Shown: positions 1 to 64,000, counted from the stretch's first letter. The stretch is 64,000 nucleotides of DNA from Candidatus Omnitrophota bacterium (GCA_015231405.1 JADGBR010000009.1:25423-89422), one strand, 5' to 3'. The notes: generated by a model not told the origin, from the sequence alone. Translations and numbers: made by a program.

Positions 1-210
1 AGCCATCTTCATCTCCAGAAGCGACCCTGCCCTTATTACCATAATATCTCCTGGATGAGATGTTCTGGCGTATTCCAGCGCTGTTTCACCGATATTCTCA
101 TCGGTCATCATGTTGTCCTTCGTGAGCTCGGAGATATTCATATTGTAAAGGCTGAGGTCACGTATCACCGGGACCATCACCGGCAGATCTATCCGGCTGA
201 GAAAATCCCC
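1..210 (-). other. Start of the shared C-terminal domain in D (the remainder lies beyond the window start)
   Basis: Translation of 300-1 gives IRRISANTSRPVTALTPRKIREIKAGMSDLGDFLSRIDLPVMVPVIRDLSLYNMNISELTKDNMMTDENIGETALEYARTSHPGDIMVIRAGSLLEMKMA. This matches the C-terminal domains of A (FLPVIMPLINDLGLYNMNFSEI), B (LPALPDVSGLKDNGMYYNLEM) and C (LPVMMAEINDLSMYNFNLCDI). Confidence 0.6.
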
Positions 211-3200
211 GAGATCGCTCATTCCGGCTTTGATCTCTCTGATCTTACGTGGGGTCAGCGCCGTGACGGGACGGGAAGTGTTAGCGGAGATACGTCTTAT
301 ACGATCGGCATTATTTTTCATGAATCTCTGGGTTTCCATGCTTTCGAGTTTCTGGATCAGGGCTATCACCGCCTCCATGTGATCTCCACTGTTCTTGTCC
401 AGATCTTCGGCCTTCAATATTCCTATAGAAAAGGTGTTAACCGAACGCGCGCATCCCAAAAGACTTTCCATATTCCTTAGCCTTGCCCTTTCATTTTCCG
501 GGACCGGCAATGGAACAAATAACACACTCGGGACCATATTTAGTTTTTCCGCGGCGTCCGTTGTGAGGAGATCATACCCTTCGACGCCTATGACCATATC
601 CTTTTCAAAAAACACTTCGGGAGTCTCGCTACCCGGAACCTCAGGGCGCCTTTCATCTTTTTCCTCAGGTTTTACCACTCGTTCTCCCGCGAACCGTTTA
701 CCGACAATGATCACCAAAACGGCCAAACTCAAAGCTACGCACAATATCACTAGGGGAAGATGGTTCGAGGCCAGGTTCGCGAATAATCCCGCCGCGTTAT
801 CACTTGCCGCCTGTTTCAGTCCCGCATCCTGGCCAAATAGGAGTGTTGTGAAAGCGTCGGCTACAGGCCCTGCTTTAGTTGCCGATAGCCCGAAATATTT
901 CTCGGCGTAATACAGCGGCATCAGGAAGCATAGATACAGTATGGTAAAGAAAGCTACCCCATATGTCCATAATTGCCTGAACCCGGAATGCCTCATGTAT
1001 AAATACGCCTTATCCCATTTTTCAGCCAGAAAATGCCTGAGCTCATTAAGCGGTTTCAATTCCTGCCGGGCGTATATTCTCTGAGGCAGACGGTCCAACC
1101 CGACCGGAAGTACCTTTTCGGTATATGGCCAGACATTATCGAGCCGCCACCTGATCTGGAACCACATTATTCGCGCCGCCGCGTTCAGGTTAACGAAATA
1201 AAGCGGCATATAGAACGATTTTGACAGATGGTACACGTAATAATATGGGATCAGCCCTATGCGGAGGTGTACTTTAAGCATATTTGACACAAGGACCGTG
1301 GCCATGAGCAATATACCAGAGAGCATCACCGGCAGAAAGACCGATGTTTCGATCATGAAAAAAGCCGTTAACGCTAAAGCGAAGCCAATGACAAAAGTGA
1401 GAAGACCGGGGCGGAAATATCCGTACAGGAATTTATCCCTCTCGGCTTTCAGTGTCTCTATACGGACCTTTATCGCCTCGGCGATAAGGATCCTTCCCCT
1501 GGTGACGGCCCCGTCCAACGGCCGAGACGGGTCCCCATAGTAGTCGGATAACAGGTCCGCGAAGAATACCGGCCTCCCGCCGTCATTTTTTTGTTTATCA
1601 TAATCCCTGTCACCGTGAATAAGCCATTCCCTGAACCTGGATATTACCTCACGGCTCATCCTATCTTTCTCGCGGGGTCCTATGATAGCCGCGTCGGCCC
1701 TTATGGCGTTGATCTCATTTACGGCGTCCTCCAGGTACTTCAAATCCTTGGTTACCCAGTTCGAAACGTCATCCTGTTGGAAATTTCCGGTCGCGCCGGA
1801 TCCTACTTTCAGAAGATCGGCTTCGAATTCATCGATCCTGTCGCCGTAAAAATCCCTTATACCCCTTGTGATCTTCTCGCGGCCTCCTAGCTTATTCTTG
1901 AAAAGCGCGGTCACATTGTGGTAGACCTGATAGAAATAGAACGTCATCATTATGGAAACTCCCACCGAGGCGGCGGCTATGAACCAGATATCCCACGGCA
2001 GCCATGTTTTCATGCTCTCGCTGAAAACGTGTACCATCCCGGATAGCCCCGACGGGTCTCGCGCCAACATGCTCGAAAGAGGCTTTCCGGCCCACAACGC
2101 GGCCCTTTGAAGTATCTCAGCGCCTACAAAAGCCAGGAAGTAGAAAAATGTCACGGCGAAACTGAGTGCCGTAAAAATAGTCGAAGTGAAACCCGAATCC
2201 AGCATTATGTTTATGAAGAAATTCCCCCAGCCGATCTGTTTTATCCTGTCCTCGACCTTTTCGGGCTGTTCTATGAAACCCCGGCGGGCGAGGAATAAGG
2301 TGAACGAACGGCTCAGCCGGTAGCTTAGCAATGCCCCTAGTACGGCGCCAATGGATGTCCCAATGAGCCCCAGGACGATCCCGTTCCTTAATCCCAGTAA
2401 ACCGCCCGCAATGCCCGCTAAGCCGAACGTAAAGAGAGGGATACAGATACTTAGAGACGCGCCGAGTATTGCAGAAGAGGAGACTATCATTATCCACCTT
2501 GACCGCTGCCCGTGCCAAGCGAAACCCATAGGACCTGCCTGTTCCAGTACTGAGGCACCCATGTCTGTATAATAATAGACTCTCTTCCCTCTCTGGCTGA
2601 CTCTCATACCCAGGGCCTTATCCTCGGTAGTATCGTCCCTGGGATGCATACCTAAAGGCTTGAGAATATTCAATTCCGCCATGATCTCCAGCATACGGCC
2701 CTTTGTTTCACCATCCAGATCCTCATGGACGTTTATCCTCGCTTCTTCGAGTATGTCCTCAACCTTACCACGCGCTGTCCTCGTTCCGTCATGTTCATAC
2801 CCTGTCATCGACCTCGACTCGAACCAGTTCGAAAGTCCGTCCAGATGGAATACCGTATGTGTCTTGGATAAACGCATTATCGCTCCCCACCCTCTTTCCC
2901 TCCCCATTCTCACCAGGGACGACGAAAGGATGAAAGCGCCGTAATACCCTATGACCGGCATGAGGATCGTAGTGGCCATCACTATAACGCTCGGGCTGAA
3001 CGCCATAATGGTCTCAACTGAACCCGCTATACCCAGGACCATGCCCACTAATGTCGCGACAAGCGCGATAGGGCTTCTCGGAGCCACCAGGCCGAATTTT
3101 ACCGGTCCCCAGCCGTTATAATCCAGATGAAAGGACTTATTGAGCCCGTAAGGGAGCTGAACCGGCATGCCCTGCATCACGGACGGTCCTTCTCTTTCTC

Positions 3201-6200
3201 TCATCTCCTCTATTATGTATTCCTCCCTCGTGGGATAAACCCCGGCACCCGGCTTAAAGATCTTTTTCATCATATCGCCTACAGGGTCACCGTCCTCGGC
3301 CAGAAATGCCATCTCAACATACCTGTCATATTCTTCCGATATTCTCACGCCCGCGTACAGGTCAATGTTCCACCTTATAGCCTCGTTGTAAAGAGTTCTG
3401 TTCCTCCTTATAAGATTCTCCGGAAGTATATTCTCGGGACGCGCCGTATATGTACCATCATCGTTCCTCTCCATTATCTCACGGGTAAGGCATCCGACCA
3501 GGTTCTTAACGCGTTCATATCCGGCTGAAACCGTCCAATAATGGAAGAGCTGGGGTTCATTGTCCTCGTCAAGTATCTCCCAGATCTCCGGCATGGCCTT
3601 AAGCCCTTCCTGGAAATCGACCAGCATATCCGTGTAAGCCATATTCGTCCCGCTGGGTTTTGATAAAGGCTGGTTCTGCTGGCCCGGCTGGTTCGGTATA
3701 GGCACAGGCTCTGGATGCGTCCTCACGCGCATTGGGTCCATGCCTATTGCCCTGGCCGCCTGCTCTCCGGACGGCACTATATTCATCGCGCCAAGCGTTA
3801 ACGGTATTATGGTCGCGAGCGAAACATTGAACCTGTCGGGCGGGTAATGCCCCTTGGTCACCGCGTGGTCTATACTCCGGGCGGCGCAGCTGGCGGCCGT
3901 CGGCCCGGGCATGGTAGGACGCATGACGTCGATATCCGTAGCCAGTTTCCTGGCCAGGTCCACCACCCCGTTATGTCCCAATTCGTCGTGAATGGCCCGG
4001 AGAATAGCCCTGTTATCAACAACCCCAGGGTCAGCGACAAAACCTGAATAATCAGGCATGCCATCCGCGCCGTTAAGGATACCCGTGCCCGCGAGCAGCC
4101 TCAGGGTCTCTTCCCTTAAAGGAGTGGGCGAAGTTCTGGTTCCTCTTAACCGCCTTATCACGCTGGCCAGAACGGCCGGACCCAGCGAAGAGTTCTTGTC
4201 CGCCCAGGTCGGGTTGTTGAAGAACTGCGGCGGTGTATCCAAAAGATTGAACAGGCTCATCACAAGTTTCACCTGATCGATCCCGTTCAGGTATACGTAA
4301 TGGTAATTCCTTATGGTCCTCCCTTCCGCCCCGGTCTCAGCCTCTTCCGGGGTCTGCGCTTCCACTCCGGCTATTGATTCCGCCACCTGATACTCGCTGT
4401 CGGTAACGAAAGTACGTGTCTCTTTCCAGAAGAACCCGTTCGATTTCAACCAGGGCTTGAGGAACATCGTCGAGATCATGAACGCCGTGCCGCCCGTCAC
4501 AAGGAACATCTTGAAACCCATATTGAGCCATGTCGCGCTTTTGTCTATACCTATCGACAACGGGCCCAGCGTCAGGACCTCAGGCAATAAAGGTATCACA
4601 AACCAGTATAAAGCATGGCTGATAGCCACCAGTATGCCTACCGCGACCAATACCGTCCTCCCATGCCTTTTCAGAACGGTCTCGAGCGCTGACAATGAAC
4701 CAAGCCTACCGTGCTCCACGCTTTCCCTGGCAGCTACATGAGCCCTGTTCCTTTTAGCGTCAAGCGGATCAACGAAACCCTTGATGTTCTCCAAGAGCAC
4801 CGCTGTCTCCCATAATTCGTACGGCACAGTATGGGCGAACAACTCCTTGCTCTCTCTTTTAGTACCAGAAGGCCAGGTCATAACCCTGCCCATCCGGTCT
4901 GTCTCGAGCCCTCCGGCATAGACACCCGACCCCGGCACAATGGCGTCATCGCCGAAGCCTGACAATACGAACCCCCCGGATGTTCCGGCGTTAACGTTAT
5001 TATCATCCTGATTGAACGACAGTTTCCGCCATCCGCCGCCGTTCTTTTCAGGGTACATGTCTTGCACGAGTATCCGCTTATACCGCATCTCGTCAACCAC
5101 CCATACACGCCATCTAAAGTCTGTTTCCCCGCCAGAATCGATCACATGCTCGGCGTCGCCTTTTAGAGCTTGTGCCTCTATTCTGGAGATCGTTATCGTA
5201 TCGAAAATAGCCTGGTACGCCGACAGGTCCGTGGTCAGGCTGTTCACGTCCGGGAGGGGCACTCGCATCGGGATGCCGACTATACTATCGGCCACAAGCT
5301 GTCTCATCCTCGATGTCACGGCGTCATCAGCGGCGTCGGGAGCGATAAGCTTTTTTAACGTTTTTTCGGCTTCGTCAAGATTGTCCAATACCATCTGCAT
5401 GGCCTCGGATTGCGCGCGAGCGTATATTAGCCTTTTCCGGGATACAGACCGGAGAACCTCGTCCCTCAGCCAGAAAAACATGGGAAACCACCGGCGTTCC
5501 AGAGACTTCCATTCTTTTTTGTTGACCGTAATCGTCTTTCTCTCGATCTTCGCCGGCCAGATAAGGCTTATCCCCATTATTATTATCCCTGTAAGCCATA
5601 GATTATTGTTCGGAAAATTCAGGATACCGGCTAACCCCATTGCCCATAACCCAAGAGCGGCTAGCCCCGTGACCATCACACAAAAAGCGGTCCCGGGCCT
5701 GGTGGATTTTCCGGTTTCCCACAAGAGCCAAATGGGTTTGGCCATATTTCCCATATCGGTGGCTTTCTTTGACCGCCTCCCGACATATTTATCTATTATT
5801 TTCACGACCTCGCCTACTCCTTTTTTCCGGGCCTCAAGATCTATCCCGGCCGCTCCAGGGACAGGTGCCGGAGCGGGTGCAGGTGCCCGTGCCGGCGGAA
5901 CTACGGGAGGCACAGGGTCACTATAGGGATGATCTTTACTCCACCGCCATTCGGTTATCTTACGTTTAATAAGCCCCACGCTGAATATTAAAAGCGCCGC
6001 GGCCAGACCGTAAATCGTCATATTCATCATGAAAACTTTCCTCGAGTTGACCTCGTCGGAAATATATGTCAAAGCACCCGGGCTATGGAGGTTAACCATC
6101 GTCACCGCCTGGTCAATTGCCTGGTCCCTCCTCAGGCTTTTCACCTTTTTCGCGTAAACTGTGTCTCCCTTCTCTACCGATACCGCCAGCTCGTAGAGTA

Positions 6201-9200
6201 TCGAATAGATCCTGTCAACGCTTTCTTCCGTTTTCCCGTCAAGATCGTACTTTTTCATTAAGACTTTCACCGCCGATTTAATTCTGTCGTTCCCGGCTAT
6301 TGCCCTTACCTCGCCCTTCAGATCCCCGTATCTCGAATTCGCGGTCTGATCGCCCCAGGCCAGAAGCTTGTATATGACCCGATCCACTTTGACATCCTTT
6401 TGATCCAGCCCCGCCAAGCTGGCTATCATCTCCCTGACAAAGAACACCGTCTCCAGCGCTTTCCTTATTTCGGGACTTTCGCTTGGATCAACTACCCCCT
6501 TGGCCATCATCATCTCATGAACGGCCGCCAACAGATCCTTATTATCATGGCGACCAAGATCGTTATCCGGGTCCATGCCGTTAAGAAAAGCCTGTATCAT
6601 AGAGCCGGCGGCTTCTTCCGGCATGACCTCGAACATGGTCTTTTTATTATCTCCGGGCACTAGCGCCGTTACTCCGTCGGGTACCTCTCCAAGTCTGATC
6701 CTTCTCCCTCCAACGACCATATCGACCCATCTCTCGGCGCTATCCACAAGAACCGTCCTTTCCACTCCTTCCGCTATCCTCTGGAGCGCCATCCCTTTTA
6801 TGAAAACGTCCCCGTCGAACGTGCTGGATGAGCCCCTGCCGATCGATATCCTTATACCGAGTTCGGATATCTTCCGCGGATCGACCTTTTTCTGGAACCC
6901 GGGCCTCACCCTCACCGTTATCCAATTCTCTCGGTTGTTCTCGCGGTTCCCCTCAGTTATGTTTATGGTGAATCCCGTACTCAGCTCGCTCTCTCCGGTC
7001 TTTATGTTCACCCAATTCCCTTCATGTCTCGCTTGATCGCCATACCAGCCTTTATTAGCGCATGACGCCTCCAGACCGTTGGATATTATCCTGTTTTCTC
7101 CCAGAAAGTCGACATCCCCCTCTTTGCCGTCGAACCTCAACTGATAAACGAATTCCCAGTTCCTCAGGTCAAGCGTCCCGTCAGGGTCTACTTTTAGTTC
7201 ATCGTGCGTATTTTCGGCGCCGGCTAATAATTCCGACAACGGCATGTACAACGAGGCGCAGCGGGTCTTCTCGCTCCCACCTATCCGCACATGATATCTC
7301 AGCACGCCTCGGTTCGCCTGGGGATCCCACCCCGGGACCTGTTCCATATTGTCCATGTTTCCGGGTCCGGCTTCGCTAAAACCCTTTAATTCGGTCCGGT
7401 CCGTATATACCGCCGAATCGAAATATGGTATGGGGGTCTTAATACCGCGCCACGCGACGAGACTGGCGAGTTCGCTGTTTATCTGATAGTATTTATCGTC
7501 GGCTATTTCCCTGCTTATTTTGCCTTCCTTGACAGCCTCATCCAGTATATTCCCTATGGCGATCATCTTCGCCGTCACTATGAACGGCGCGGAAAGTTTC
7601 ACTTTGCGCCATTGCTTCATGACGTAGTCCTCGCTCTCCCCTTCGTACATCGCCCTGAAAGCTCCGTCCGGTTCTTCCCTGCCCATCATATTTATCTCTT
7701 CGCTCACCCATCCCTTGAGATAATCGACATCCCAGTTATTCTTCAGCTGCTCGATAAGGTAGTTCAATACCGCGGCGTACGAATGCCCTTCAGCATACTG
7801 AACGAGGCCAAGAAGAGCCAGGGGAGCCCTTACCAGATACTGGATCTCGGTCCGTTTCACCCCTTCGGACACCTCCGAGCTTATGATCTTATATATCTCT
7901 ACTACTTCGTAACGGTCGATCTCGGTCACCTTCCTCCCATCCCTTTCCGTATCCCTCGTCGACCCCTTTATTTTTATCCGGATGTCCGGAGAGATCAGGG
8001 AAACCCCGTAAAAATATCCGGATCTCCCCGGAACACAGTCTCCGGGAACGCTTATACTGAATTTTTTCCCGTCATGCTCAATAACGCAGAAATACTTAAC
8101 CACTATCTCTCGCGATGTATCTGCGGCCAACCCGTTAAAGTCAACACCCTCAACCTCACATTCCGGATCGGCTTCCATTTTCCCTCTGGCGACCCTTATC
8201 CTGAAAATTTTCCCTTTATCGGGCGAATTGTCGTCGTCGATACGCATGTACGCCGTTTTTGGGTCGTTAGGATCATCGTAAGCGAATGTCTCCAGCCATC
8301 TCTCTTCACCCTGAGAGAGCCCTTCCGGCGAATACGTGATGCCGAAAATACCTCCCAGTATCTTCTTATCTCCTCCGGGAACGGGCGTCATTACATCCCG
8401 GAACTTCTTGAGAGGGGTAATTCCTTCTATATCGGTGCCTTTAAGCACCGCCCTTACTTTCATTTTCACCCCGGGTTCGTTGACACTCGAGCCAAAGAAC
8501 TCGCTCTCCCTGTCGTGAGGGGCATCGGCAGGAATTACGAACCTATACTTTTTTCCCGCGACCGTGTGCGGCTTAAAATATCTGACCGCCTTTTCACCCG
8601 AAGCGTCAACCTCACCGTTACCTTTAAATACAACTCCCGTGACCTCTCTTTCGGCCTCCGGCTCCATTTTCCTGCCCAGGACATCAATGCGGAATATCTT
8701 ACCTTTATCGGGGGATAACTCATCGCTGACAATGACATATGCTTTGGAAGGATCCGCCGTATTGTCATAACCGAATTTCCTGAGCTCCTTAGCCGTGCCG
8801 GAGACACTGCCGTCGAGCGCGTATGTCAATCCCGAGAATTCCCCTATCGTGAGGGTCTTCTCATCGCCTTCTTTTTCCGGGAAGAACAGAGCGGCGAAAG
8901 TGGTCTTACCCGCCTCCATGGTGTACTGGATCTTCGGGTCCCTGATATCGTCATACCCGATCCATTTAATGACCGCGTCCTTATCGGGCGTGCCTTTAAC
9001 CATGCTTGTCACGCCGTCCGTCTCAAAAAGAGACAGCTCTCTTATGACAAGCCCCGTCTTACCGGCATTCATATCGTAAAATGCGAGATAATAACTCCCG
9101 GTCTCCTTGTCCTCTATGAACTGGAGGGTAAGATCGGCGTTATAGCCGTAGTTGACAAGAACATCCCCCTCGTCTTTCACCTCACCCTCTTCCAGCTCGG

Positions 9201-12200
9201 CTGAGGCGAGTTTTTTTATGGTTATTGGCTTACCGTCCACGAGGATATACACGAACACCTCGCCGGCCTTCACCTTATTCGCTTCGACCTCGGGGGAACC
9301 CGTTCCGTATTTTTTGTAGTAGTGTATTACCTCCAAGCCGTCCTTGGCCATTTTCTTCGCCGCGAATTGATAGATCACCTTCCTGTCAACGTCCTTGACC
9401 CCGCCTTTCCCGTCAAGCTCAACGCCTTTTAACTGGGCGATCACCGGCCCGCCGAAGGAAGACGACAGAAAAACGTCTCCGGCGGCATTCTTCCCCTGGA
9501 TAACCTCGGGAGAATTCGCCGTCATTTCCTTGTAATAACCGGATGCGTCCCATCCATAAAGGTATATTGTCTTCTCAACCGACTCCACGGTCCCGTCAGG
9601 TTTGATCTTCACGCCCGCGCATTTCCTTATAAGTGAACTCTCGTCGTCCTTGTCCAGATATACGAAAGCTTCTCCTTCCCGGATCGAAGCGTCCGGCCCG
9701 AGGACATACGGGGATCGCGCGCCGTGGACAACTAAGAACAGTTTTCCGTCCGGGCTCTTCGCGAAAAGATACATCGTCTCTTCATTTATCCCTATACATT
9801 CCTTCCAGTCCTTTGTCGGGTCGTAATACACCTCGGCTATTGTCCGGCCGGGGACCAACACGTCCGGCTGGTACATTTTATAGATGGGCCTCGCCTCCGG
9901 CTTATGTTCCCGATCGGTCTTTTTGTCGATGAACTCATGCCTGTATATGTAAGGCGAAGCTTCGGCCTGTCTATATTCGGCTACAAGTACGCCGAGCCCG
10001 TCGGGAAGGACCCTATTGACGCTGTTCATCTTCATGTTGTATCTTTCCGCGGATAGTTTCGTGAATTTTTCGTCCACCATAAGGAGGTTGTCGTGTTCCT
10101 TTACGACGATATCATAAACGTACCAGACTTTGTCTCCGCTCATACGTTCACAGCGTTTAACGGGTATCCCGCTCGGGCCGTTTATGTACGTGACCTCTAT
10201 CTTCTTCGCCTCTTTTGTACCGTCGGCGTAGGTTATTTCTACCTTTCTGTTATGGACAAGGCCCGTCACGACGTCTTCCTCATAATCAACAAGAGTTATT
10301 CTTCTTATCTCTTTTGCCGCGGCGCCTCTTCGTACGGCAGGGATACCCGCCGCTCCACCGGCGGGAGGGACCCCTATGACCGGTGTTCCCGGCACCCTGA
10401 CCGCTCCCGGAGCCGGCTTCAGCGCGGGAGCCGGCGCTCTACCCCCGGTGGCTTGTCTTAAAACCGCCCGGAGCGATCCCAGCCACGCCTCCCTTTCGTC
10501 TTCGTTCCTCCACGTACGGTCATCGAGCCCGGTGTTCCAATTCCATACCGCTATCCCTTCGATACCGTTATCCGATGCGAGGCTCAAATACTCATCTATT
10601 CCGGTCGGATCCGAACCCGCCGCGGTCGAAAGCTCCTCGATCCTTACGGGAACTCCCTCGTCCTTGAATGTTTTTATCGTCGCCAGGAGCGCCGCCCTCG
10701 CCTCCCTCCCGAACCTGTCGGCGTAATGGTGTATGGCCGCGTAATCCAGCATCCTCACTTCCTCGCCGTTCACCGTTCCCGTCCGTTTAAAAAGTGCGGC
10801 GATAAGGTCGATATATTCCGAGGTCCCTTCCTTTTCGGTATTAACGCTCATCGTAATAAGCTTGCCGGGGGCCAGTTCTCTGATGGTTGCGGCCACTTTC
10901 CCGGCGTATCTCTCAAAAAGGTTTACAGGAAGCTTCGTTTGTTCTATCTCGTTGAACAGGTCGAACCCTTTAAGGGCTTTATGCCCGCCAAACTCACGAA
11001 GGAACGGTTCAAGGAAATCCGAGACAAAAGCGTCAAGCGTCGCCTCGTCCTTCAAAAGCGCGTCCCTGCCGAAAATACGCACTCCTTTGTCGTTCTTCCC
11101 CGGGAACGCCGATTGGTGGTCCAGCACACAGAATTCTATTCGCATACCCAGGCTATCGGCAATGTCCAGGAGCGCTTTCATGTCTTCCTTGAACCTGATA
11201 TTCAGCCCATACGGTACCTTGAGCTTCCCGTTCTCGTCCAACAAAGCGCGCCCGTCGGCGACAAGGTTCATACGCACAAAAGTCATCCCGCTCTCTTTCA
11301 TCGCGGCGAGGTCCCTCCTTACTTCGACTGTATGCCTTGATATCCCGTTCCCGTTCTTATACCAGAGGGTCGTTCCGAAATTCTGGCCGTACCCCGCCGG
11401 CCCGTTATAATTCACCCCTACTTCAGGAAGAGCGGCGCCGGAAGCGGCGGGGGCCTGTAGCATAGCAACGGACATCTGGGGCATAAAGAGCCCTATGAGA
11501 CCCATCCCGAGGTTAACTCCGTTATCGAATTCCCTCCTAATAGAAGAGCGCCTAGCCTCCGACAGCATTTCCTCCGGGACATTTTCCGAAACACCTCTTC
11601 TCCCCGGGAAAGCCCTCATATCGAGGCCGGCACTCTTGTTCCAGAGATCCTCGATCCACGTGTTCCTGGCGGGCGACACCTCATGGCACCTGTCCCTGAA
11701 ATCATCTTTCCACGGCTTTTTAGTCACTTTCCCGGGAACAGACGGGTCATATTCGAGATCAACGGTCTCTACTACAATGAATTTTCCTTTATATACTATG
11801 CCGGTCGATATCTTCATGGGTTTACCTTTGAACCGGCTGGTCTTCGAATACTCGAATTTTTTGTATTCATACACCGTTGTCCCGTCCGGAAGCGTTACGG
11901 GTATCTTCTCGAGGTCCGTAACAACACTCCCGGTCTCCGCGTCTTTATGTTTGAAGAACTCATGAAGCCGGTTGGATTCAATGGTGTGGAACCTTGTGAA
12001 AAGAGTATGTATCTCGGCCGGAGACCCGGAACCGAGTATTATCTCCCGTTCATCCTTATCTCCCTCGTAATCGAACGAAGTGGTCTCGGTTTCGTCCACC
12101 CAGTTCATATCGTATTTGTGTTCTTTTTTGTTCACATGGTCGGGAATAATGTGCTGGCTGAGATATTCTATGGCGTAATCTATCGGGTTCTTCCCGTTCT

Positions 12201-15200
12201 CGTAATATCTCGGCAGGAAACCGTCATGGTCTCTCATGGCGTCGGCTATCTCGCCGAGTTTGGCTATGCCTTTGGCGACCTTAGCGTCAAATTCGCGTTT
12301 TTGGTCTTCGGTAGCGTTGTTATTAAGAATAGCCTTCCCCATCGTCTCCTCGCGTTTATAAACGTCCCGGACGAGAAAAATCGCCTTGTAAAGCATCTTT
12401 TCGTACATGCGGCGCCTTAAAAGCATCTCCTCGCGTTTATGTTTTGCGTCCCAGAACTCCTGGTCGGATCCCACGCCTTCCGCTTCGACGGCCCTCATCC
12501 CCTCGCCGTCGGGCATATACCTCAAATACTCATCGTATGGCAGCCCGAATTTATCCTCGGCCAATTTCGCCGCTTCGAGCATGTGTTTCCTGAACAGTTC
12601 GAGGAGTTTAATGTCGATCTGGTTGCTTGTCATGAAAGCCTTCAGACCCATAAGGGTATAAAGGTCGTCCTCGTAAGCGACCCTTTTCTGTTTCGTGTAC
12701 ATACCGCTATCTTTGAAAGCCGCGGAAAAAGGCTGGGTTCCGTCAAGGTTAAGGGGCGCCGCTGTGACAGGGGGCCTGAAATTATTGATATCCTCGAGAT
12801 GCTCGGTACCGAAACTCGCGTCCCACTTTACCGCGTTCGGGCTGTACTGCCTGAAAAGTCTCATCCCTATGTTATACCAGCCTTCTTCGACGAATCCGTC
12901 TATGGTCCTCACATAATGAGCCCCGATATGCTCGCGCCTCAATAACCCCTTCATAGTCGGCGTCAGTTCCCCTATCCCCTCCATAGCCACAAGAGCGTCT
13001 ATGAACTTCCTGGAAAGACTCCTCGGCATGGCGGCTTCCATCTCTTTCTGCCATCTCATATAATCTTCTCTGTTCCTGACCTTTAAAAGATCGTTCTCGC
13101 ATTTTTTCTCCCATTCCCTCATCTCCCGTTCATCAGTGGTCTGCCACTTGCGGTCCATGGCGATATTTACCCTAAAAAGGAGGGTTTTCCTAGCCGAAGC
13201 GAGCATCTCTAGCCTCTTCTGGAGCTCGCCGGCGAGTTTCTCGTTCTTTTCATCCACCGCTTTCTTTATTCGGACCTTTAGTTCTTCTATATCCGCCTTC
13301 AATTTCTCGGCCTCCTTCCTCTCCTTTAAACCCCCGAAATACGCCGAGAATTTTTTTACTTCTTCCCAATCCCTGGAAGTCATGACACCGGGCTTTAAAC
13401 CCTTCACCCGGTAATATTCGTTCCGTGACTGGAGGTATAAAAGCTCTCCAAGTTTGTTCCCGAAATCCTTGTCGATGGCCGATAGCTCGGCGTTCTCGGC
13501 GCTTGAAAGGAGACCCGAGGCGAAAGTCCCGAGATAATGATGCGGCGGAACTATCTCAGCCGCTATTGTAGTTGCCATTTCGGCCATTTTCCTCGTATTG
13601 AAACCTCTCGACGGATTCATCTTTATATAATCCGAAAGGAACCTGTTCCACCTTTCTCTCGAAAGTTTGGACGCCGCGTCCTTGTTGAATACCTGCATCG
13701 CGGCGATCAGATAATCGACGTCCTCGGCGTTGACAGGAACATTCGGGAGTTTCGGAACTATTTTTCCCCCGGCCGCCATGACCCCTAGCTCCCTTGCTTT
13801 TTTCACCTGAAGCGCCGTCAGTTGTTCCTTCCTATCCGCCGGAAGCGAAGCTATCTTACCCCGAAGGTATTCAGTCACCGCAGCCAGCCATTTTTCGTTC
13901 ATCCTATTGTCCTTAACTTGAAGCATCTTCTCGAGCTCCTCCAGCCTGAAGGCTTTTTTCGTGGCGGCATCAAGAAACTCATTCATCGCGGCCATGGCCG
14001 CCTCTATCTTTCCTATCGCCTCCTTGGCTCGCTCCTCCTGGTTTATTTTTTTGGCGTTAAGCTCGGTTATTACCGCCTTGAGCCATGGGATATTAAGCTT
14101 GTTAGCGCCAAGAGCGTTCCTCCTTGCCTCGACAATGTCCCTGTCTACACCGGCCGGAAGCGTTTTTTCCAGATGGGCTATAAGTTCTTCGGCCTTTTTC
14201 TGGACTGCTTCAAGCTCTTTTTTAGCGAGTTCGTCCGAAAGCATCTTAACTGCTTTTTCCATCTCATCCCTTTTACCCTTAAGGCCCCTTATCCACTCGG
14301 TCCATGTATCAGTCTGTTCCTTGGGATAAAATTTTTTCAGACCTGAGATCAGACGGGCGGCGTCGGCTACCAGCCCTTTTGTATCGTCTACCCCAAGTTT
14401 GTCCTCGGCTTTGACTTTCGCCGCTTGAGTCGCTTGGACCTTATCTTTAAGGGCGAGACTTGAAAGAGTCCCTTCAAGCCTTATTTTTATGGTATCTATG
14501 GGAGTTTTGCCCACGGCGTCCTCTAGTGCCGCTATTTCGGACGCCGAATAGGGCCGCCCCGCGAGTTCCCTCTCCTTTTTCATTGCAGCCACATAGGCCC
14601 GCCTTATTCCCTCCTGCGAACTCGCGAAACTCAGTCTCTTTTCCCTAATTATCGCCTCAGCGTCGAGAAGGGCCTTATCCGACGTTCTAATGAATTCCCG
14701 GATAGCTTCATCGTCCTCATGTTTTACCCAGTCCTCTATCTTCCTGCCGCGTCCGATTATCCCGCCGACACCCTCTGCTCCAAGCTTATTGCCGCTAACT
14801 ACGGCTTTTTTCTCCAGGTCCAGCCTCTGCCTGACGGCGTTCTCAGCTACCGTAACCGCCACTTTCAGCTTGTCCTTATCCGTGAATTTTCCGGCTTCCG
14901 TTTCCAGGGCCAGCCGTGCCTCATCCGTGCATCCGGGGATAAGAGCGGCTCTTGCTTCTACCCATCGCCTGACTAGCGGCCTCATCTCCGCCTCAAATTG
15001 TTTCTGGGGGAGGCTCTCCTCGAGAGCTTTCGTCTCAGCCCTTCCTTTAATGAGCGTTTCTAATCCATTAACAGCCTCACGAAGCCTGTCATAGGTCATC
15101 TCGTCAGCTATTTTCTCAAGATCTTCCCGGCTCTTATCGCCGTAAAGATCATTAGCGTCGGGGGCAAGCTCGACGAATTTCTTAGCGAGAAAGGTTTTCC

Positions 15201-18200
15201 ACTGAACATTTGTCCGGAGCTTTCCGATCAATTCGTCCAGGAACGACGTCTCTTCGACCGGAGTTCTTGTCCTGGCGTTTTCGGCAAGGTATTTCATATA
15301 CTGTTCCACAGGTATTTTATGGATTTTCTCTACAAGAGCCGCCGCTTCATCCCGTTTAGCCTGGATCCCATTCATTATTCTTATTTCTTCTAAAAGCTCA
15401 TCCAGGCTCATGTTCAGAGATACGTCATAAACGGCACCGAACTCCTTGCCATATAGCCGTTCCTGTTTATCACGGTACTCTACTCTCGCCGCTTCCGCTC
15501 GCTCGACATTTTTTGCCAGTTCCCTTTCTTTATCCCGAAGGGACTTAAGGTCACGAAGCTCTCTGAATATTTTTTCCCCCAGTGCCTCATGTCCTTTCGG
15601 ATCCGTCTTTTTCAGGGATCCGGTTATGGATCTCTTGACCCTTTCCACAGAAAAATAATAAGTAATACCTTCTTCCAGTTCTTTCTTATCGAACCCCGCC
15701 GCTTTCTCTTCCAATTTCTCTTTTGTCGTATCGGGAAAAGCCGCCAGACCGCCTCTCACGAATGAGTGCCTGGCGATATCAGTTTCATGCTCGGTTATGG
15801 ACCTTTCCAGGCCATCCTTGTCCATTGTTTCATATACTCCCAGATCGGTCATCTTGAAATCGGCATGAGCTCTTACATGTTTATTCCTGGCGTCAGCCCT
15901 CAAGGCCTTCATCTCCTCGGTATCAGGAACGGCCTCTTTGACCCCTTCATCCGGCGGTCCCGCTCCCCCGGCGCCCTCAGGCTCCGGAGCAGCTTCTCCC
16001 AAGTCCGCCATAGCTAACATTTCATCGAAGACATCCTCTTCGACGCTGTCCGCCAGTTCCGTCGCCGCTTCCCGAGTTCCGTCGAGTGGAGCTAACGGGT
16101 CGGCCTCCGTGCTGACCGGTGTCACTACCGGCACAGCCAGTATGTCCGCGACCGTTACCTCTTTACCCTCCCATATCCTCCTAAAATTATCCCGGACCTG
16201 AGCCACCGCCCCTTCTTCATAAACGTGGCTCACATATCTCGAACTCGCCTGTTCCACCATACTCCCGGAGGCGATCGACGGGATAGCCATTATTATGCCG
16301 GCTTGCATTACAAGCTGGGTCATTTTCCGCGAATCCGCTATTACCCCCGCTATCTTCCCCGAAAATCCGGTCAACTCTTCGCCGCTGGCAAGGCGCCTTA
16401 CAAGCCCTTTCCTGTACGAAATGATGGCCATGACAATTCCGGCCACGGTAAGGATGAAAGCGCCAACGCTCCCGGCCAAAACCGCGATCGAAGTCCCCAG
16501 GGCCATTGTTTTAGCGACCCCTGTGACCGTTCCGAGAATAGCCGCTAAGCCTAAAGCCCCGAGAACCAGCATCCTCACGTCAACCGCTCCTGACCACACC
16601 ATGCGTTTCCCGACGCCCAACAATTTGCTCCCGCCGAAAGTTTTGTGCTCAATTTCAGAAAAACGCGCCGAAACATAGGGTAGGCCGACGAGATAGAGAA
16701 GCGCGAGAGTGAACGTCACTATAGAACCCAAAAGCATTACGAGGCTTACAGCGCCGATGAACTGTCCGGTATAAATGGCCGTGCCGTAGAGAAGGGCTAC
16801 AGCTACGCCTGAAGCGAGGAGCCCCTCGGCCCTTTTCAGCCTGGCCGCGCTTGAATCCTCGAGCACTCTGTCGTACTGGCTCCTTTCCAACTCCCTTATC
16901 CCTATTCCGATCAAAGTTATCGCGCCGGCGCCGATCATAAGGCCGGGAACATTCGTGAACATAAAGAGAAGCGCTATCCCCGAGATGACCGTCATACCTG
17001 TCGTAAGAGCGGAAAAGAACCTTTTCATATCATCCGTTTTAACTAGTTTCGGAGTTATGACTTCGCGCCGTGATATCATCCTCGCCTTGGCAACGGCCAA
17101 AATGATGGATGATATTACACCGGCACCGGCCATAAGCGCGATTAGAGGTAAAAGCACCGGGACCGCTCTCGGAAGTGCTACCGCCGATATCATGGCAAGG
17201 ACAGACCCTACGGGGGCGAACGACGACACCATAATTAAAGCCATAGCCGGGACCGCTTTCACCGCTCCCAGCCAATCCTTTGCATCCAGAGAGCCTTTCA
17301 AAACAAGCTCAATATTTTCTTTACCTTTATATATCTCGCCAAACTTGGCCACATGACTCCGGTAAATAGAAAAAGCCAGGAATATCAACCCTACAGCCGC
17401 CACCACCCACAGACAGGCAGGCATCACGGTGTATATATCCGTTATCAGGAATTTTACATGCCCGCTCATCGCAGTTTCGCCTATCCCACTACCATCCGAA
17501 ACAAAGCTCATGACGCTTGTGAGCTTCATGGCTAAATTCATTACCTGCCATGAAAGGGCTATTATCACGCCGCCGAAAACTAAGCCCGGAAGGACTTTAA
17601 GCACTCTTTTCCCTCTTTCAGCGGCCGTCTTTGGCTCGAGTTCGCGTTTCAACATATCGGATATACTCAGATCCTCTCCCCTCACTCCGGCCCCTATCAA
17701 TATTTCCCTTGAAAGATCGGCGTTCATATAAGCCACGGCATATTTGAAAGCTTTTTCCGAAGCGCTACTGAACTCCCCGAAGACCTTTTCCTGGGACCTT
17801 GCGGCAACAGCCCTCCATCGGGCGTTCCTTACCTCAAGGCTGAGTCTGTGCTTGACCTCGGAAACCTTATCGAAATAATAGCTCGAAAAAGCGTTGTCCA
17901 TTATCTGTAAAAGCCCTTTACGAAAATCTGCCATATTGTTTTTCGCAACTTTAGCGGCTATAAGGTCTAAATCCTTTATTAAACTCTTTAGTTTCTGGTC
18001 GTTAAAACGCCCCTCGACTACCGCGGCCCGAATATCCAGAAATGCAGCTTTTCTGGCCTCAACCTCGGCCTCAAAACGCGCTTCCTCGCCGAACCCTCGT
18101 ATCCTTGAATCCATTATCGCCCTTCTTATCGAGCCGATAAGGCTTTCGACCTGGCCGGGCCTTATCCCTACCTTCGATGCTATGAACCCTGACTCAGGTT

Positions 18201-21200
18201 GACCGTTGAACAATTTCCCGAGCGACGCTCGCGCGGTCTTTACGCCGCTATCTTCTTTGTATTTCGCGAATATCGGATCGCCAAGCGACCAGTACGCCGT
18301 CCACCTGCCCATTTCTCCCGGTCGCCTCGCGACACGGCGCCTGAACTGAAGGTCGGTAGCCATAACCTCGTCAATATAGGTCGAGTACGCCGAGATGCCT
18401 TCCCTCGCGGATATGACGCCCCTTAGCGCGATATCCATGCCGCGGCTTCCGCGGTTGGACACGATCGTTATCATCCCGTCGTTTCCGCCTGTATCCTCTA
18501 TCCTTTTAATATCCGCGTCCGAACCGGACGCAAAAATATTTATCCGCTCCTTTGCGATAGCCGCGCCTAAAGCCTTCTCGATGCCTTTAATTATGACCTC
18601 TATCTCCCCGTCCATAGCCTTTATAAGGATAGGCGCGTTGCTATTGACCTTTTCCGCTATATCCCGTAACATGGCCTTTTCTTTTTCTTTTTCGTTACGG
18701 AATAACATTATTGTATCCTCGCCAAGGCTCATATATCTGTCCGGTATGACAGGCTCGACGACTTCCTTATTATGTACCCTCATCATGAACTCTTTGTCCA
18801 TAGTGCCGCTAGCGCCCGCAAAATCGGCGATAATGTCCCTATTTTGTAGAAATGACTGAAGCATGCTGACGTTCCGCGTGGCGTGTTCGAGGTTCACTTC
18901 AACATTCTCTTTAGCCTCTATCGCCGCGTGAAGGCCGAAAGACCATCTTCTTCCTTCCATTTCTTTTCCTTCGGTCGCGTCGATAAGCACAACCTCGCCG
19001 TTTTTTACCATGTAATCCCTGCCGCGTTTGTAACAAACGGCCGCGGTTAAAGCCTGCTCCACGAGATATTTCCAGCCGAGGAGATCATTATGATCAAGAT
19101 CGGTCTCGCCCACTTCCCCGGGGTTGGCCCTGAGTACATTCCTCAGGCATTCCTCGCCATCACCCGTCAACGTCACTGTTTGAGACGCGGCTTTGGAGAG
19201 ATCCACTAGTCCGGGCACGGTCTTGGCCCGCTTTATGATAAACTGGGCCATCTGTCGGGCCACGATAAAACTCTTTCTTATCTTTTCGGCTTCCTTTTTA
19301 TCCCCACCGGAAATGACAAAAGGCGTCATGATCTGGTATATGAGCGCGGAGTCCGCCTCGTCGAAAAGCGCGAACCATTTCCTGGCGGAGAAAGCTATTT
19401 CCCCTTTTTCGACAGCCAGTTCTTCGGATTGGCGCCTGTGCACGAATTTGTCGATCTTTCCGTAAATAATATTGGCTTTCCGATAAAGCTCCGTAGCCGG
19501 CACGGGATCCTTGCCCATTTTTCCCGTTAATGGATCATATAAATACCCTATATCCCGCCCTTCCTTATTCCGGCCCGCGGCGTACCCGCATACAAGCCCG
19601 AACGGCTCGAGCATCTTCGCCGCCGATTCCGCGTCCCTAGCCGCAAGGTCGTCGCTTGAGGTAACGACAAGAACGCCCTTGTCCATCGCGCTATATCCTT
19701 TTTTAACGGCCAGCATATAAGCACAGAGCCTGAGAGCAAGTGTCTTCCCGAATCCCATCGGTATCTGGTACATCTTCCCTTCCGCCATGTTTCTGGCCGC
19801 ATCCGCCTGTATGGCGAGTTTACCTATATCGGGAGTGCCGCCCGTAGCTTGAAACATGTCTATTTCCCGTTCGAGCATGATCCTCAGGTCTTTTTCCCTG
19901 CTTAACAGCTCGGTTTTAGTTATGTCAGCGTTCAATGGAATTATCGGGCTTCTCCCTAGGAGAGGATTAATAAAGGCTGACAGAAGGGTTGCGACCAGTA
20001 TAAGCCTGGCCACGATCCAGTTCTTTCTCGGAGCGGGCGCTTTCGTCAGATCCTGAGCCGGCTCTTCTTCCGGTACGGCGATCTCGAAGGTTTCGGCCAT
20101 AACGGGTTCCTCTATCGCGGCGGGGACAGCTCCATCGGAAGTATTCGGCTCAGGCGATATGGCCGCGACGGTCCCACTTTCGATTAGACTTGCATCCGGT
20201 ATATCCGCCGTAACAGGGGCCGGTGATCCTATCTCGGGATAGACCACGGCTTTAGCCTTTTCCGCTATGATCTCGCCGGCTCTATCGATCTTCCGCTGTC
20301 TTAAAGCGGCCAGCTCTTCCCTTATCGAATCCGGATCTTTAGCCATCCAGGCTTTAAGCTCAGTCACTCCGGGTTCTTCGACCTTTGGATGATCAGCGCC
20401 GAGTTCCGCGCCGTAGGTTCTTTCCATATGATCGTTGATCCCCTGTATCGTCCGAGCTGCAAGAAGCATCCTTTCGAACCTGGGCTTCCAGTTCCTGCCG
20501 AAAGACATGAGAGACCTACCCCTCCCCTTATAGATGTCTACCCCGGCATCGGAGAGCATATTTATCTGTTCCTTAAGGAATTCCAGGTCGAAATCCGAAG
20601 ATATGATCTTTTTGATCGCGGCCGTTTCTTTTATACCCAGCGCCCTGAATACGTCTTGTTTGGTCAGGGCTTCGGCAACCCAAAGTTTACGGACCATCAC
20701 AGTAATATCCTCTGTTACGTTCCCTGTGACTAGAAGTTTAGGGTGTTTCCTTATAATATACGCCTCGTCGGTCTTTGTGACATACCATTTGAGGCTGCTT
20801 TGTATCGACCGCGAGAACACCGTGCCCGAAGCCAATTCCTCTCGGGTAACAGTTGTTCCAAGCTTTTCACCCGCGTCCTCGACCGCTTTCAGGAAAAGCC
20901 CGAGAGCTTTCCTTAAAACGCCGTCAAAATTGGCGATATCGACGACATTGCCATGCCTTGTCCTCATTAAAGACAGCAAGGCGTCCTGATGGATCTTTCT
21001 CATGAGAAGAAAGTTATACACATCCTTGGTAGAAACGGCCGTCTCTTCGACTCGCGGATCGGCCATCCCCGAAGCTAAAACCAGGTGCCCGATCTCATGC
21101 CGTAGGGCCCATGCCACCGCCGGAGCGACGCACATGTACACATCTTTCCTTTTAAACCTGGTTATATTTTCAGCGACATATATCGCCTTCTCAAGGAACC

Positions 21201-63980: not shown

Positions 63981-64000
63981 CGTGAAATTGTCCTCGCCAA

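What the first reader, a model, noticed from the sequence alone, without database searches (positions are those of the whole stretch)
670..8790. Segmental paralogy: D 670-8790 is a diverged duplicate of C 56229-63980 (about 2600 aa) with different downstream fates
The antisense ORFs from the two regions in the supplied track are near-identical in pairs, for example 2351-2572 versus 57877-58107 and 5012-5926 versus 60382-61236. In my D translation and the C ORF the polytopic-transmembrane module aligns end to end. After the final shared helix (HLPLVILCVALSLAVLVIIV in D, HLPLVILGGAVLFALVLVLV in C) D goes to the C-terminal domain within about 170 aa. C continues for another ~3000 aa of enzyme cargo. 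This shows module shuffling among the giant genes.
Basis: seen in the sequence. Interest (0 to 1): 0.6.

Follow-up and report, generated by a model that had tools for sequence, protein, structure and literature searches.

The report
Shared membrane module in two giant genes
Two neighbouring giant genes of an uncultured Omnitrophota bacterium carry old, selectively maintained copies of the same ~2,600-residue membrane module, one followed almost at once by the family's C-terminal domain and the other by 2,700 residues of extra enzymes first, which shows how these giant genes are built from interchangeable blocks.

Summary
On the minus strand, D (open frame 1-23565, cut by the left edge) residues 5091-7644 align with C (46971 to the right edge) residues 2-2602. 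Identity is 65% at protein level and 67-70% at DNA level, on one colinear diagonal. Synonymous sites are near saturation and dN/dS is about 0.1, so this is an old duplicate under purifying selection.

The source is an Omnitrophota MAG. C is GenBank MBF0216447.1, 7,175 aa, with 1,506 aa beyond the window.

After the last shared helix D has a 27-aa linker, then a C-terminal cap also found in B1 and C. C has 2,715 aa of cargo (two guanylate-kinase-like domains, a methyltransferase) before the same cap.

The paralogy is wider than reported: a GH-like domain lies upstream of the module in both genes. The flanks are 3-5 times more diverged, relative to outgroups, than the module. That suggests the module was copied or homogenised later.

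The module recurs in about 25 other Omnitrophota giant proteins with different neighbours. Its core carries glycosyltransferase-2-like motifs (ED, QRxRW), but that link is unproven.

This is a new member of a known kind: Omnitrophota multi-enzyme giant genes.

The parts
1..23538 (-). Giant gene D. The frame is open over 1-23565, the first ATG is at 23538, and the ORF is at least 7,855 codons. It runs off the left edge with no stop. All D residue numbers in this report are open-frame numbering (residue 1 = 23565).
679..8313 (-). Module M, D copy (D aa 5085-7629). It begins with a ~140-aa 'GYDD' domain, has large soluble inserts and ~14-17 hydrophobic helices at positions conserved with C, and ends ...HLPLVILCVALSLAVLVIIVGKRFAGER.
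56217..63998 (-). Module M, C copy (window C aa 1-2588, equal to residues 1507-4094 of the full 7,175-aa protein MBF0216447.1). It is 65% identical to the D copy at protein level and 66.8% at nucleotide level.
2494..2847 (-). GT2-like motif block in the D copy: HLDGLSN (aa 6907), DDTTEDK (6979) and QRSRW (7020), followed directly by a helix bundle.
58029..58382 (-). GT2-like motif block in the C copy: HLDGLSN (aa 1867), DDTTEDK (1939) and QRSRW (1980). ED and QRxRW are invariant in 14 family members.
8392..8802 (-). Extra upstream copy of the GYDD domain in D (aa 4922-5058). A degenerate third copy starts near aa 4860.
604..678 (-). D linker between module M and the C-terminal cap (aa 7630-7654; 27 residues counted up to MVIGVE).
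1..603 (-). D C-terminal cap, first ~200 residues only (aa 7655-7855). It is homologous to B1 aa 2431-2635 and C aa 5375-5488. About 170-195 residues are expected beyond the window.
48072..56216 (-). C-specific cargo of 2,715 aa between M and the cap. It holds guanylate-kinase-like domains at 55881-56171 and 54645-55052 and a class-I SAM methyltransferase at 52815-53192. The rest has no Pfam match.
46971..48071 (-). C C-terminal cap (aa 5304-5669, plus the stop codon). It is homologous to the caps of B1 and D.
10426..11475 (-). GH-like (clan GH-A type, NE...EE motifs) domain in D (aa 4031-4380). It is 40% identical to residues 1-345 of full-length C, which lie outside the window.
21535..23427 (-). 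N-terminal cap of D (aa 47-677). It is shared with B1 (40%) and B2 (27%) and is absent from C as annotated.
26151..34625 (-). Giant gene B1 (2,824 aa): N-cap at 32676-34604, PEP-utilizers_C at 28827-29636, C-terminal cap at 26154-27341. It has no module M.
34698..46808 (-). Giant gene B2 (4,036 aa): N-cap at 45195-46808, phosphoglucomutase domains I-III at 42552-43760, CofD-like domain at 36306-36854. It has no module M.

Best explanation
Setting. The window is part of a ~94-kb contig of an Omnitrophota MAG. It carries a same-strand array of giant genes in the order C, B2, B1, an IS66 remnant, then D. These are of the membrane-anchored 'multi-enzyme' type already described for this phylum.

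What is shown:
- D and C each contain a copy of a ~2,550-2,590-aa polytopic membrane module (M) with no Pfam family that reaches its cut-off.
- The two copies are each other's closest relatives. They are old (synonymous sites near saturation) and held under purifying selection.
- The paralogy covers a larger C-like unit: GH-like domain, a variable spacer, GYDD plus M, a slot, then the C-terminal cap. The whole of C corresponds to D from residue 4031 onward.
- The slot between M and the cap holds 27 aa in D and 2,715 aa of enzyme cargo in C.

What is inferred:
- History. The C-like unit duplicated early. M was later copied or homogenised between the two genes by non-allelic recombination or gene conversion. 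Cargo was gained or lost in the slot by recombination between family members that share M and the cap.
- Function, from motifs and composition only. M is the membrane platform of these proteins. Its universal core (C aa ~1626-2460) resembles the catalytic-loop half (ED of TED, QRxRW) plus the helix bundle of processive GT2 glycan synthases. The K/R-rich tail after the last helix places the slot cargo and the cap in the cytoplasm.
For: Paralogy:
- 65% aa and ~70% nt identity on one diagonal.

Age and selection:
- pS 0.73, dN 0.25; wherever window-wise dS can be computed, dN/dS is 0.07-0.23.
- longest identical run is 31 nt; third-position identity is 0.44 against 0.27 expected at random.

Source:
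- P0001 = MBF0216447.1, Candidatus Omnitrophota, 7,175 aa, on a 93,998-bp contig. It contains window C exactly.

Shared cap and slot:
-.

Upstream GH-like paralogy:
-.

C and D as sisters:
- 100% NJ bootstrap on the M core.

Unequal depth, C-D distance against distance to the outgroup:
- M: 0.36 against 2.0.
- GH-like domain: 1.10 against 1.23-1.37.
- Cap: 1.53 against 1.9-2.0.

Shuffling in relatives:
- P0003 is M-core plus B1-like cargo. L007 and L010 have the slot at ~155 and ~1,450 aa, and the next gene in each starts with the N-cap.

GT2-like core:
- invariant ED and QRxRW.
- PF13632 matched by 8 of 9 members, best E 3.5e-7.
- TED-to-QxxRW spacing is ~40 aa.

Topology hint:
- 6 K/R in the 15 residues after the last helix.
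Against: - The later-copy reading of M rests on distance ratios with few outgroups. P0007's M belongs to a different clade, so orthology of the outgroup is not assured. Faster evolution of the GH-like domain and the cap after one duplication would give the same numbers.
- There are no long identical tracts, so any conversion was itself ancient.
- D's C-terminus and the DNA upstream of C were not seen.
- GT2 affinity is weak. The window sequences score 16.5-19.7 bits against a 27-bit Pfam cut-off. Only ~145 aa lie between the flanking helices, too few for a full GT-A domain.
- PDB profile searches, NCBIfam, two AlphaFold models (pLDDT 53 and 66) and Foldseek gave nothing.
Confidence: 0.8

Rival explanations
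1. A single ancient duplication of the whole C-like unit, with no later transfer of M. The difference between 65% identity in M and 30-40% in the flanks reflects stronger constraint on M, or relaxed or adaptive evolution of the GH-like domain and the cap. C's cargo was inserted later, or D's was deleted.
For: C and D are the closest pair in all three segments. There are no conversion tracts. The identity profile along M is fairly even, 43-86%.
Against: Against P0007 the GH-like domain is more conserved than M (37% against 25%). Between C and D the order is reversed (40% against 71% on the same columns). The same reversal appears for the cap against P0005.
Confidence: 0.3
2. D is a fusion of an upstream N-cap/SecA-type gene (~4,030 aa) with a complete C-like gene. 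The paralogy would then be a whole-gene duplication of C followed by loss of a stop codon.
For: C's annotated Met1 aligns with a Met at D residue 4031, exactly where homology begins. C lacks the N-cap that D, B1 and B2 have. D's first part is about the size of B2.
Against: P0007 from another MAG also has N-cap, then GH-like domain, then M in one ORF, so the long architecture is not unique to D. No cap-like domain precedes D residue 4031. The start of C could not be checked against DNA.
Confidence: 0.2
3. Assembly or binning artefact: the two copies are strain variants or a chimeric join, not paralogues in one genome.
For: The source is a MAG contig, and giant repetitive genes are hard to assemble.
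Against: The copies are only 67% identical at DNA level with near-saturated synonymous sites, far beyond strain variation. Both sit in uninterrupted ORFs of 17-23.6 kb in different contexts on one contig. Two other MAGs also hold two M copies.
Confidence: 0.02

Closest known systems
Omnitrophota giant genes of the Archaeovorin / 'multi-enzyme metabolic' type (West-Roberts et al. 2023, bioRxiv 10.1101/2023.11.21.568195; Nielsen & Lui 2026, bioRxiv 10.64898/2026.06.07.730766)
   Same: Same phylum. ORFs of 7-8 kaa with many transmembrane helices. D has a divergent SecA_DEAD/PP_bind domain without the scaffold and wing domains. The cargo includes methyltransferase, phosphoglucomutase, PEP-utilising and GH-like domains.
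   Different: These genes are far below the >30-kaa proteins those papers focus on. The papers describe Pfam repeats within a protein and clusters of Pfam architectures. In the passages I searched, neither describes a 2,600-aa module without a Pfam family shared between neighbouring genes, the conserved N- and C-terminal caps, or a variable slot before the cap.
Processive family-2 glycosyltransferases (cellulose, chitin and hyaluronan synthases; Pfam PF13632 Glyco_trans_2_3)
   Same: The motifs occur in the right order and spacing: LDG, then ~70 aa, then (T)ED, then ~38 aa, then QRxRW, followed directly by membrane helices. There are sub-threshold PF13632 matches in 8 of 9 members. The comparison of spacing with BcsA is from my own knowledge.
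   Different: No N-terminal nucleotide-binding half of the GT-A fold was found. Only ~145 aa lie between the helices. The window sequences score below the Pfam cut-off. There is no PDB or fold match.
Modular multi-gene families with conserved ends and exchangeable middles (Rhs/CdiA polymorphic toxins; PKS/NRPS assembly lines with docking domains)
   Same: Conserved terminal domains (N-cap, C-cap) frame variable internal cargo. Family members lie in tandem, and blocks recombine among paralogues.
   Different: There is no sequence relationship. The variable part here is housekeeping-type enzymes, not toxins or carrier-protein modules. A docking function for the caps is speculation.

Membership tests
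Omnitrophota giant genes (Archaeovorin-type / multi-enzyme class) | Encoded in an Omnitrophota genome | tested here: met
   C is MBF0216447.1, 'Candidatus Omnitrophota bacterium'. All 12 related loci are Omnitrophota MAGs or TPA bins that group with them.
Omnitrophota giant genes (Archaeovorin-type / multi-enzyme class) | Very long single ORF (>=20 kb / >=7,000 aa per Seymour, as cited by West-Roberts; >30,000 aa for West-Roberts' 'giant') | tested here: inconclusive
   D is at least 7,855 aa and C is 7,175 aa, which meets the 7,000-aa criterion. None reaches 30,000 aa.
Omnitrophota giant genes (Archaeovorin-type / multi-enzyme class) | Numerous transmembrane helices | tested here: met
   Hydropathy scan: 25 segments in D and 15 in window C; 14-17 at conserved positions in M. 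This was a Kyte-Doolittle scan only; no dedicated topology predictor was run.
Omnitrophota giant genes (Archaeovorin-type / multi-enzyme class) | Divergent SecA DEAD / preprotein-binding domain | tested here: met
   D aa 1251-1720: PF07517 E 7.6e-20, PF01043 E 2.8e-17. Not present in C, B1 or B2.
GT2 processive glycosyltransferase | Catalytic (T)ED and QxxRW motifs ahead of membrane helices | tested here: met
   ED and Q-R-x-R-W are invariant in 14 family sequences. The positions are given.
GT2 processive glycosyltransferase | Significant match to a GT2 profile (Pfam gathering score) | tested here: not met
   Window sequences score 16.5-19.7 bits against a cut-off of 27. The best relative reaches E 3.5e-7. 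NCBIfam and PDB profile searches were negative.
GT2 processive glycosyltransferase | Complete GT-A fold with the nucleotide-binding N-terminal half and DxD | tested here: inconclusive
   Only ~145 aa lie between the flanking helices. An LDG motif stands where DxD would be. The AlphaFold models were too poor (pLDDT 53 and 66) and Foldseek found nothing.
Recent segmental duplication / ongoing gene conversion | High DNA identity with long identical tracts and low dS | tested here: not met
   Nucleotide identity is 66.8%, pS is 0.73 (near saturation) and the longest identical run is 31 nt.
Functional paralogues (not pseudogene copies) | Intact frames and purifying selection | tested here: met
   No stop codon in either copy. 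dN is 0.25 against dS above 2. Window-wise dN/dS is 0.07-0.23.

The most novel reading that the evidence does not exclude
The tandem giant genes would be subunits of one membrane-anchored glycan-building machine. Module M would be a highly diverged GT2-type synthase or translocon. The slot between M and the C-terminal cap would accept interchangeable enzymes that supply nucleotide-sugar precursors: guanylate kinase, phosphoglucomutase, a PEP-utilising enzyme and, in relatives, an epimerase/dehydratase. The conserved N- and C-terminal caps would act as docking or boundary domains that let cargo blocks recombine between genes, with M kept uniform within a genome by gene conversion.
Probability: 0.15. 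Interest if true: 0.7.

Novelty: new member of a known kind. Interest (0 to 1): 0.4.

Why it matters
Omnitrophota giant genes are among the longest known, and most of their sequence has no annotation. How they are assembled and what they do are open questions.

This locus gives a concrete, testable grammar for one family: N-cap, cargo, GH-like domain, module M, a variable slot, then a C-terminal cap. It also defines a conserved 2,600-aa membrane module that current domain databases miss, with an ~830-aa universal core found in about 25 proteins.

The unequal divergence of adjacent segments points to recombination between paralogous giant genes as a way they diversify.

It does not change the general picture of these genes, and the protein is already deposited, annotated only as 'methyltransferase domain-containing protein'.

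Tried and rejected
Searches that returned nothing:
- The search for homologous proteins with the whole module and with D's tail found no hits. Yet the full C protein is in the same collection, so the word-indexed search appears blind to these proteins.
- The look-up of encoding contigs for B1, B2 and P0001: not on record. The missing ends of the contig could therefore not be read.
- The search for related loci with the C+D alignment in genome, metagenome and viral collections: no relatives. The patterns chosen were too specific, and the source contig is in none of the three collections. The 9-sequence core alignment then found 12 loci.
- The first representative search failed because the profile had more than 1,200 positions; it was repeated.

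Function of M, the N-cap and the cap:
- PDB profile searches were negative.
- NCBIfam was negative.
- AlphaFold models of the core had pLDDT 53 and 66, with the motif regions below 50.
- Foldseek against the PDB had no hit below E = 5.

Other negative checks:
- No shared k-mer of 9 nt or more between the two junctions of C's cargo.
- No similarity between the spacers C 340-1510 and D 4375-5095.
- No further copy of M in B1, B2 or the front of D.
- No tandem repeats and no Rfam families in the window.

Readings rejected:
- The antisense ORFs as genes or as independent evidence.
- A recent duplication.
- An assembly artefact.
- Similarity arising from transmembrane composition alone, because the soluble stretches are equally conserved.
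Full report
**1. What is in the window**

The minus strand carries four very long open frames:
- D: frame open over 1-23565, at least 7,855 codons, no stop before the left edge, first ATG at 23538.
- B1: 26151-34625, 2,824 aa.
- B2: 34698-46808, 4,036 aa.
- C: 46971 to the right edge. The frame is open to 63998, so the GTG at 63980 is only the first start codon inside the window.

GC skew is negative throughout. Residue numbers for D are open-frame numbers (residue 1 = 23565). Numbers for C are window numbers (residue 1 = 63980) unless marked 'full'.

**2. The observation**

- blastp aligns C 2-2602 with D 5091-7644 at 65.0% identity over 2,611 columns.
- MAFFT gives 67% identity with only 12 small gaps. 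The largest is a 43-aa collagen-like insert in C.
- blastn gives one colinear diagonal at 67-70% identity from D 827-7909 to C 56365-63459.
- A profile of the pair finds no further copy in B1, B2 or the front of D. The only exception is a second copy of the first ~140-aa 'GYDD' domain at D 4922-5058.
They are shadows of the conserved coding frame.

**3. Age and selection**

- Nei-Gojobori counts over 2,541 aligned codons give pS 0.73 (dS ~2.9, near saturation) and dN 0.25.
- Identity by codon position is 75%, 82% and 44%.
- Wherever dS can be computed in 100-codon windows, dN/dS is 0.07-0.23.
- The longest identical nucleotide run is 31 nt. Third-position identity is flat along the module at 0.35-0.51, against 0.27 expected from composition.
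- Both copies are therefore old, intact and under purifying selection, and there is no recent conversion tract.

**4. Source**

A full HMMER search of 1.84 billion cluster representatives with the last 1,150 residues of the module found 16 proteins.
- The best hit, P0001, contains window C exactly from its residue 1508 onward.
- P0001 is GenBank MBF0216447.1, 'MAG: methyltransferase domain-containing protein [Candidatus Omnitrophica bacterium]', 7,175 aa, on a 93,998-bp contig.
- The locus fits the giant-gene class described for this phylum. That class is rich in transmembrane helices and carries a divergent SecA_DEAD domain plus methyltransferase, phosphoglucomutase and PPDK-type domains (West-Roberts 2023; Nielsen & Lui 2026).
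- Pfam finds in this window: SecA_DEAD/PP_bind in D, PGM I-III and a CofD-like domain in B2, PEP-utilizers_C in B1, and two guanylate-kinase-like domains and a methyltransferase in C.

**5. Breakpoints and 'different fates'**

- Strong similarity ends at ...KRF(A/S)GER after the last helix: D nt 679, C nt 56217.
- D's next residues are not unrelated sequence. D 7657-7854 aligns with B1 2431-2635 (E 2.5e-18) and with C 5375-5488 (E 5e-11).
- C 5302-5669 aligns with B1 2429-2824. A profile of the three confirms a ~370-395-aa C-terminal cap that starts MVIGVE.
- So D is M, 27 aa, then the cap, which is cut by the window with ~170-195 aa missing. C is M, 2,715 aa of cargo, then the cap.
It also explains why C has ~3,080 residues after the module.
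- The two junctions of C's cargo share no k-mer of 9 nt or more.

**6. The paralogy is larger than reported**

- Full-length C starts with a GH-like domain (NE...EE motifs, weak DUF4434 match) that is 40% identical to D 4031-4380.
- C's Met1 aligns with a Met at D 4031.
- Between this domain and M the two proteins have unrelated spacers: ~1,160 aa in C, with PEAxPAKA repeats, and ~540 aa in D.
- C lacks the ~630-aa N-terminal cap that D, B1 and B2 share at 27-40% identity.
- Hence C as a whole corresponds to D from residue 4031 to its end.

**7. Unequal depth**

The table gives Kimura distances.

| Segment | C-D | To the outgroup |
|---|---|---|
| M (1,882 ungapped columns) | 0.36 | 2.0 (P0007); 1.2 (P0002) |
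| GH-like domain | 1.10 | 1.23-1.37 (P0007) |
| C-terminal cap | 1.53 | 1.9-2.0 (P0005) |

- Relative to outgroups, the C-D split in M is therefore 3-5 times shallower than in the flanks.
- Over the long term M is not the slower-evolving segment: D against P0007 is 25% identical in M and 37% in the GH-like domain.
- The simplest reading is that M was copied or homogenised between two paralogues that had already diverged. Rate heterogeneity after a single duplication is the main rival.

**8. The module elsewhere**

- BLAST and profile maps of the hits and of 12 loci from GTDB representative genomes show M in many contexts:
  - near the N-terminus of 5.7-6.1-kaa proteins (P0002, P0006);
  - behind an N-cap and a GH-like domain (P0007);
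  - as its last third only, fused to B1-like PEP-utilising cargo (P0003);
  - followed by C-like cargo and the cap (P0005).
- The slot between M and the cap varies: 27 aa (D), ~155 aa (L007), ~1,450 aa (L010), ~2,700 aa (C, P0005).
- In L007 and L010 the next gene starts with the N-cap, as in this window.
- The universal core is C aa ~1626-2460.
- In an NJ tree of the core, C and D are sisters with 100% bootstrap support. Three clades appear.
- Two other MAGs carry two copies each. In one MAG the copies come from different clades (27% identity). In Candidatus Tantalella remota they are 66% identical.

**9. What M may do**

- M has ~14-17 hydrophobic segments at positions conserved between the copies.
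- The core has an invariant ED (in HPxDDTTEDK) and an invariant QRxRW. LDGxxN is invariant in the nine- and 15-sequence alignments but only its G and N are nearly invariant in the 14-sequence set.
- ED lies ~70 aa after LDG, QRxRW lies ~38 aa after ED, and a helix bundle follows directly.
- This is the motif order of processive GT2 synthases. PF13632 is matched by 8 of 9 members, best E 3.5e-7.
- The evidence is weak, however:
  - the window sequences score below the Pfam cut-off;
  - the soluble loop is too short for a full GT-A domain;
  - PDB profile searches, NCBIfam, two AlphaFold models (pLDDT 53 and 66) and Foldseek gave nothing.
- The K/R-rich stretch after the last helix and the ATP- and SAM-dependent cargo suggest that the slot and the cap face the cytoplasm.

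**10. Verdict**

- This is a well-defined case of block-wise evolution in a known class of genes. It also defines a conserved membrane module and two terminal domains that have not been annotated before.
- Not established: the ends of D and C outside the window, the direction of the cargo gain or loss, the conversion hypothesis, and the biochemical role of M.

Noticed in passing
window 24066-25427 (-): Three consecutive, overlapping minus-strand ORFs (109, 161 and 198 aa). The 161-aa and 198-aa ones match successive parts of the IS66-family transposase model NF033517 (E 2e-23 and 1e-33); the 109-aa one matched no NCBIfam model. This is a frameshifted IS66 remnant in the low-GC (45%) gap between the end of B1 and the start of D. 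It may mark a rearrangement that placed D next to the C-B2-B1 array.
   Followed up: partly
window 21535-23427, 32676-34604, 45195-46808 (-): A ~540-630-aa N-terminal 'cap' shared by D, B1 and B2 (27-40% identity). It has a hydrophobic helix near the start and an I(V/H)IQDAH motif. It is also found at the start of giant genes in other Omnitrophota (P0007, and the genes downstream in L007 and L010). There is no Pfam, NCBIfam or PDB match.
   Followed up: partly
window 26154-27341, 46974-48071, 1-603 (-): A C-terminal 'cap' of ~370-395 aa shared by B1, C and D, with MVIGVE and LPVMxPxIxDLSLYNMN motifs. B1, C and B2 all end ...(R/Q)xxLxxA-stop, so B2 may carry a very diverged version. Whether the caps dock consecutive proteins is untested.
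   Followed up: partly
window 63633-63761 (-): A 43-aa collagen-like, Gly-X-Y-rich insert (GKEGAQGAKGESGQAGQMGPEGE...) inside the first domain of the C copy. It is absent from D and gives weak Collagen and Scl-adhesin matches.
   Followed up: no
window 18406-19815 (-): D carries a divergent SecA DEAD / preprotein-binding / P-loop region (aa 1251-1720), followed by a cluster of nine hydrophobic helices (aa 1988-2378). This is the SecA-like feature reported for Omnitrophota giant proteins.
   Followed up: no
window 42552-43760 and 36306-36854 (-); 28827-29636 (-): B2 holds a complete phosphoglucomutase/phosphomannomutase domain set (I-III) and a CofD-like domain. B1 holds a PEP-utilising (PEP-binding) domain. 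Relatives that carry module M are named by their sources as PEP/pyruvate-binding, NAD-dependent epimerase/dehydratase and methyltransferase proteins. Together these suggest a sugar-nucleotide theme.
   Followed up: no
P0001 residues ~445-520 (outside the window, upstream of 64000): Full-length C has about ten tandem PEAxPAKA repeats after its GH-like domain, and ~1,000 residues of beta-rich sequence with no counterpart in D.
   Followed up: no
L004 and L006 (MAG JBDRSA01); L010 and L012 (Candidatus Tantalella remota JAVCCB01): Two other Omnitrophota genomes each carry two genes with the module core. In one genome the copies belong to different ancient clades (27% identity); in the other they are 66% identical. 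More than one copy per genome is therefore recurrent.
   Followed up: partly
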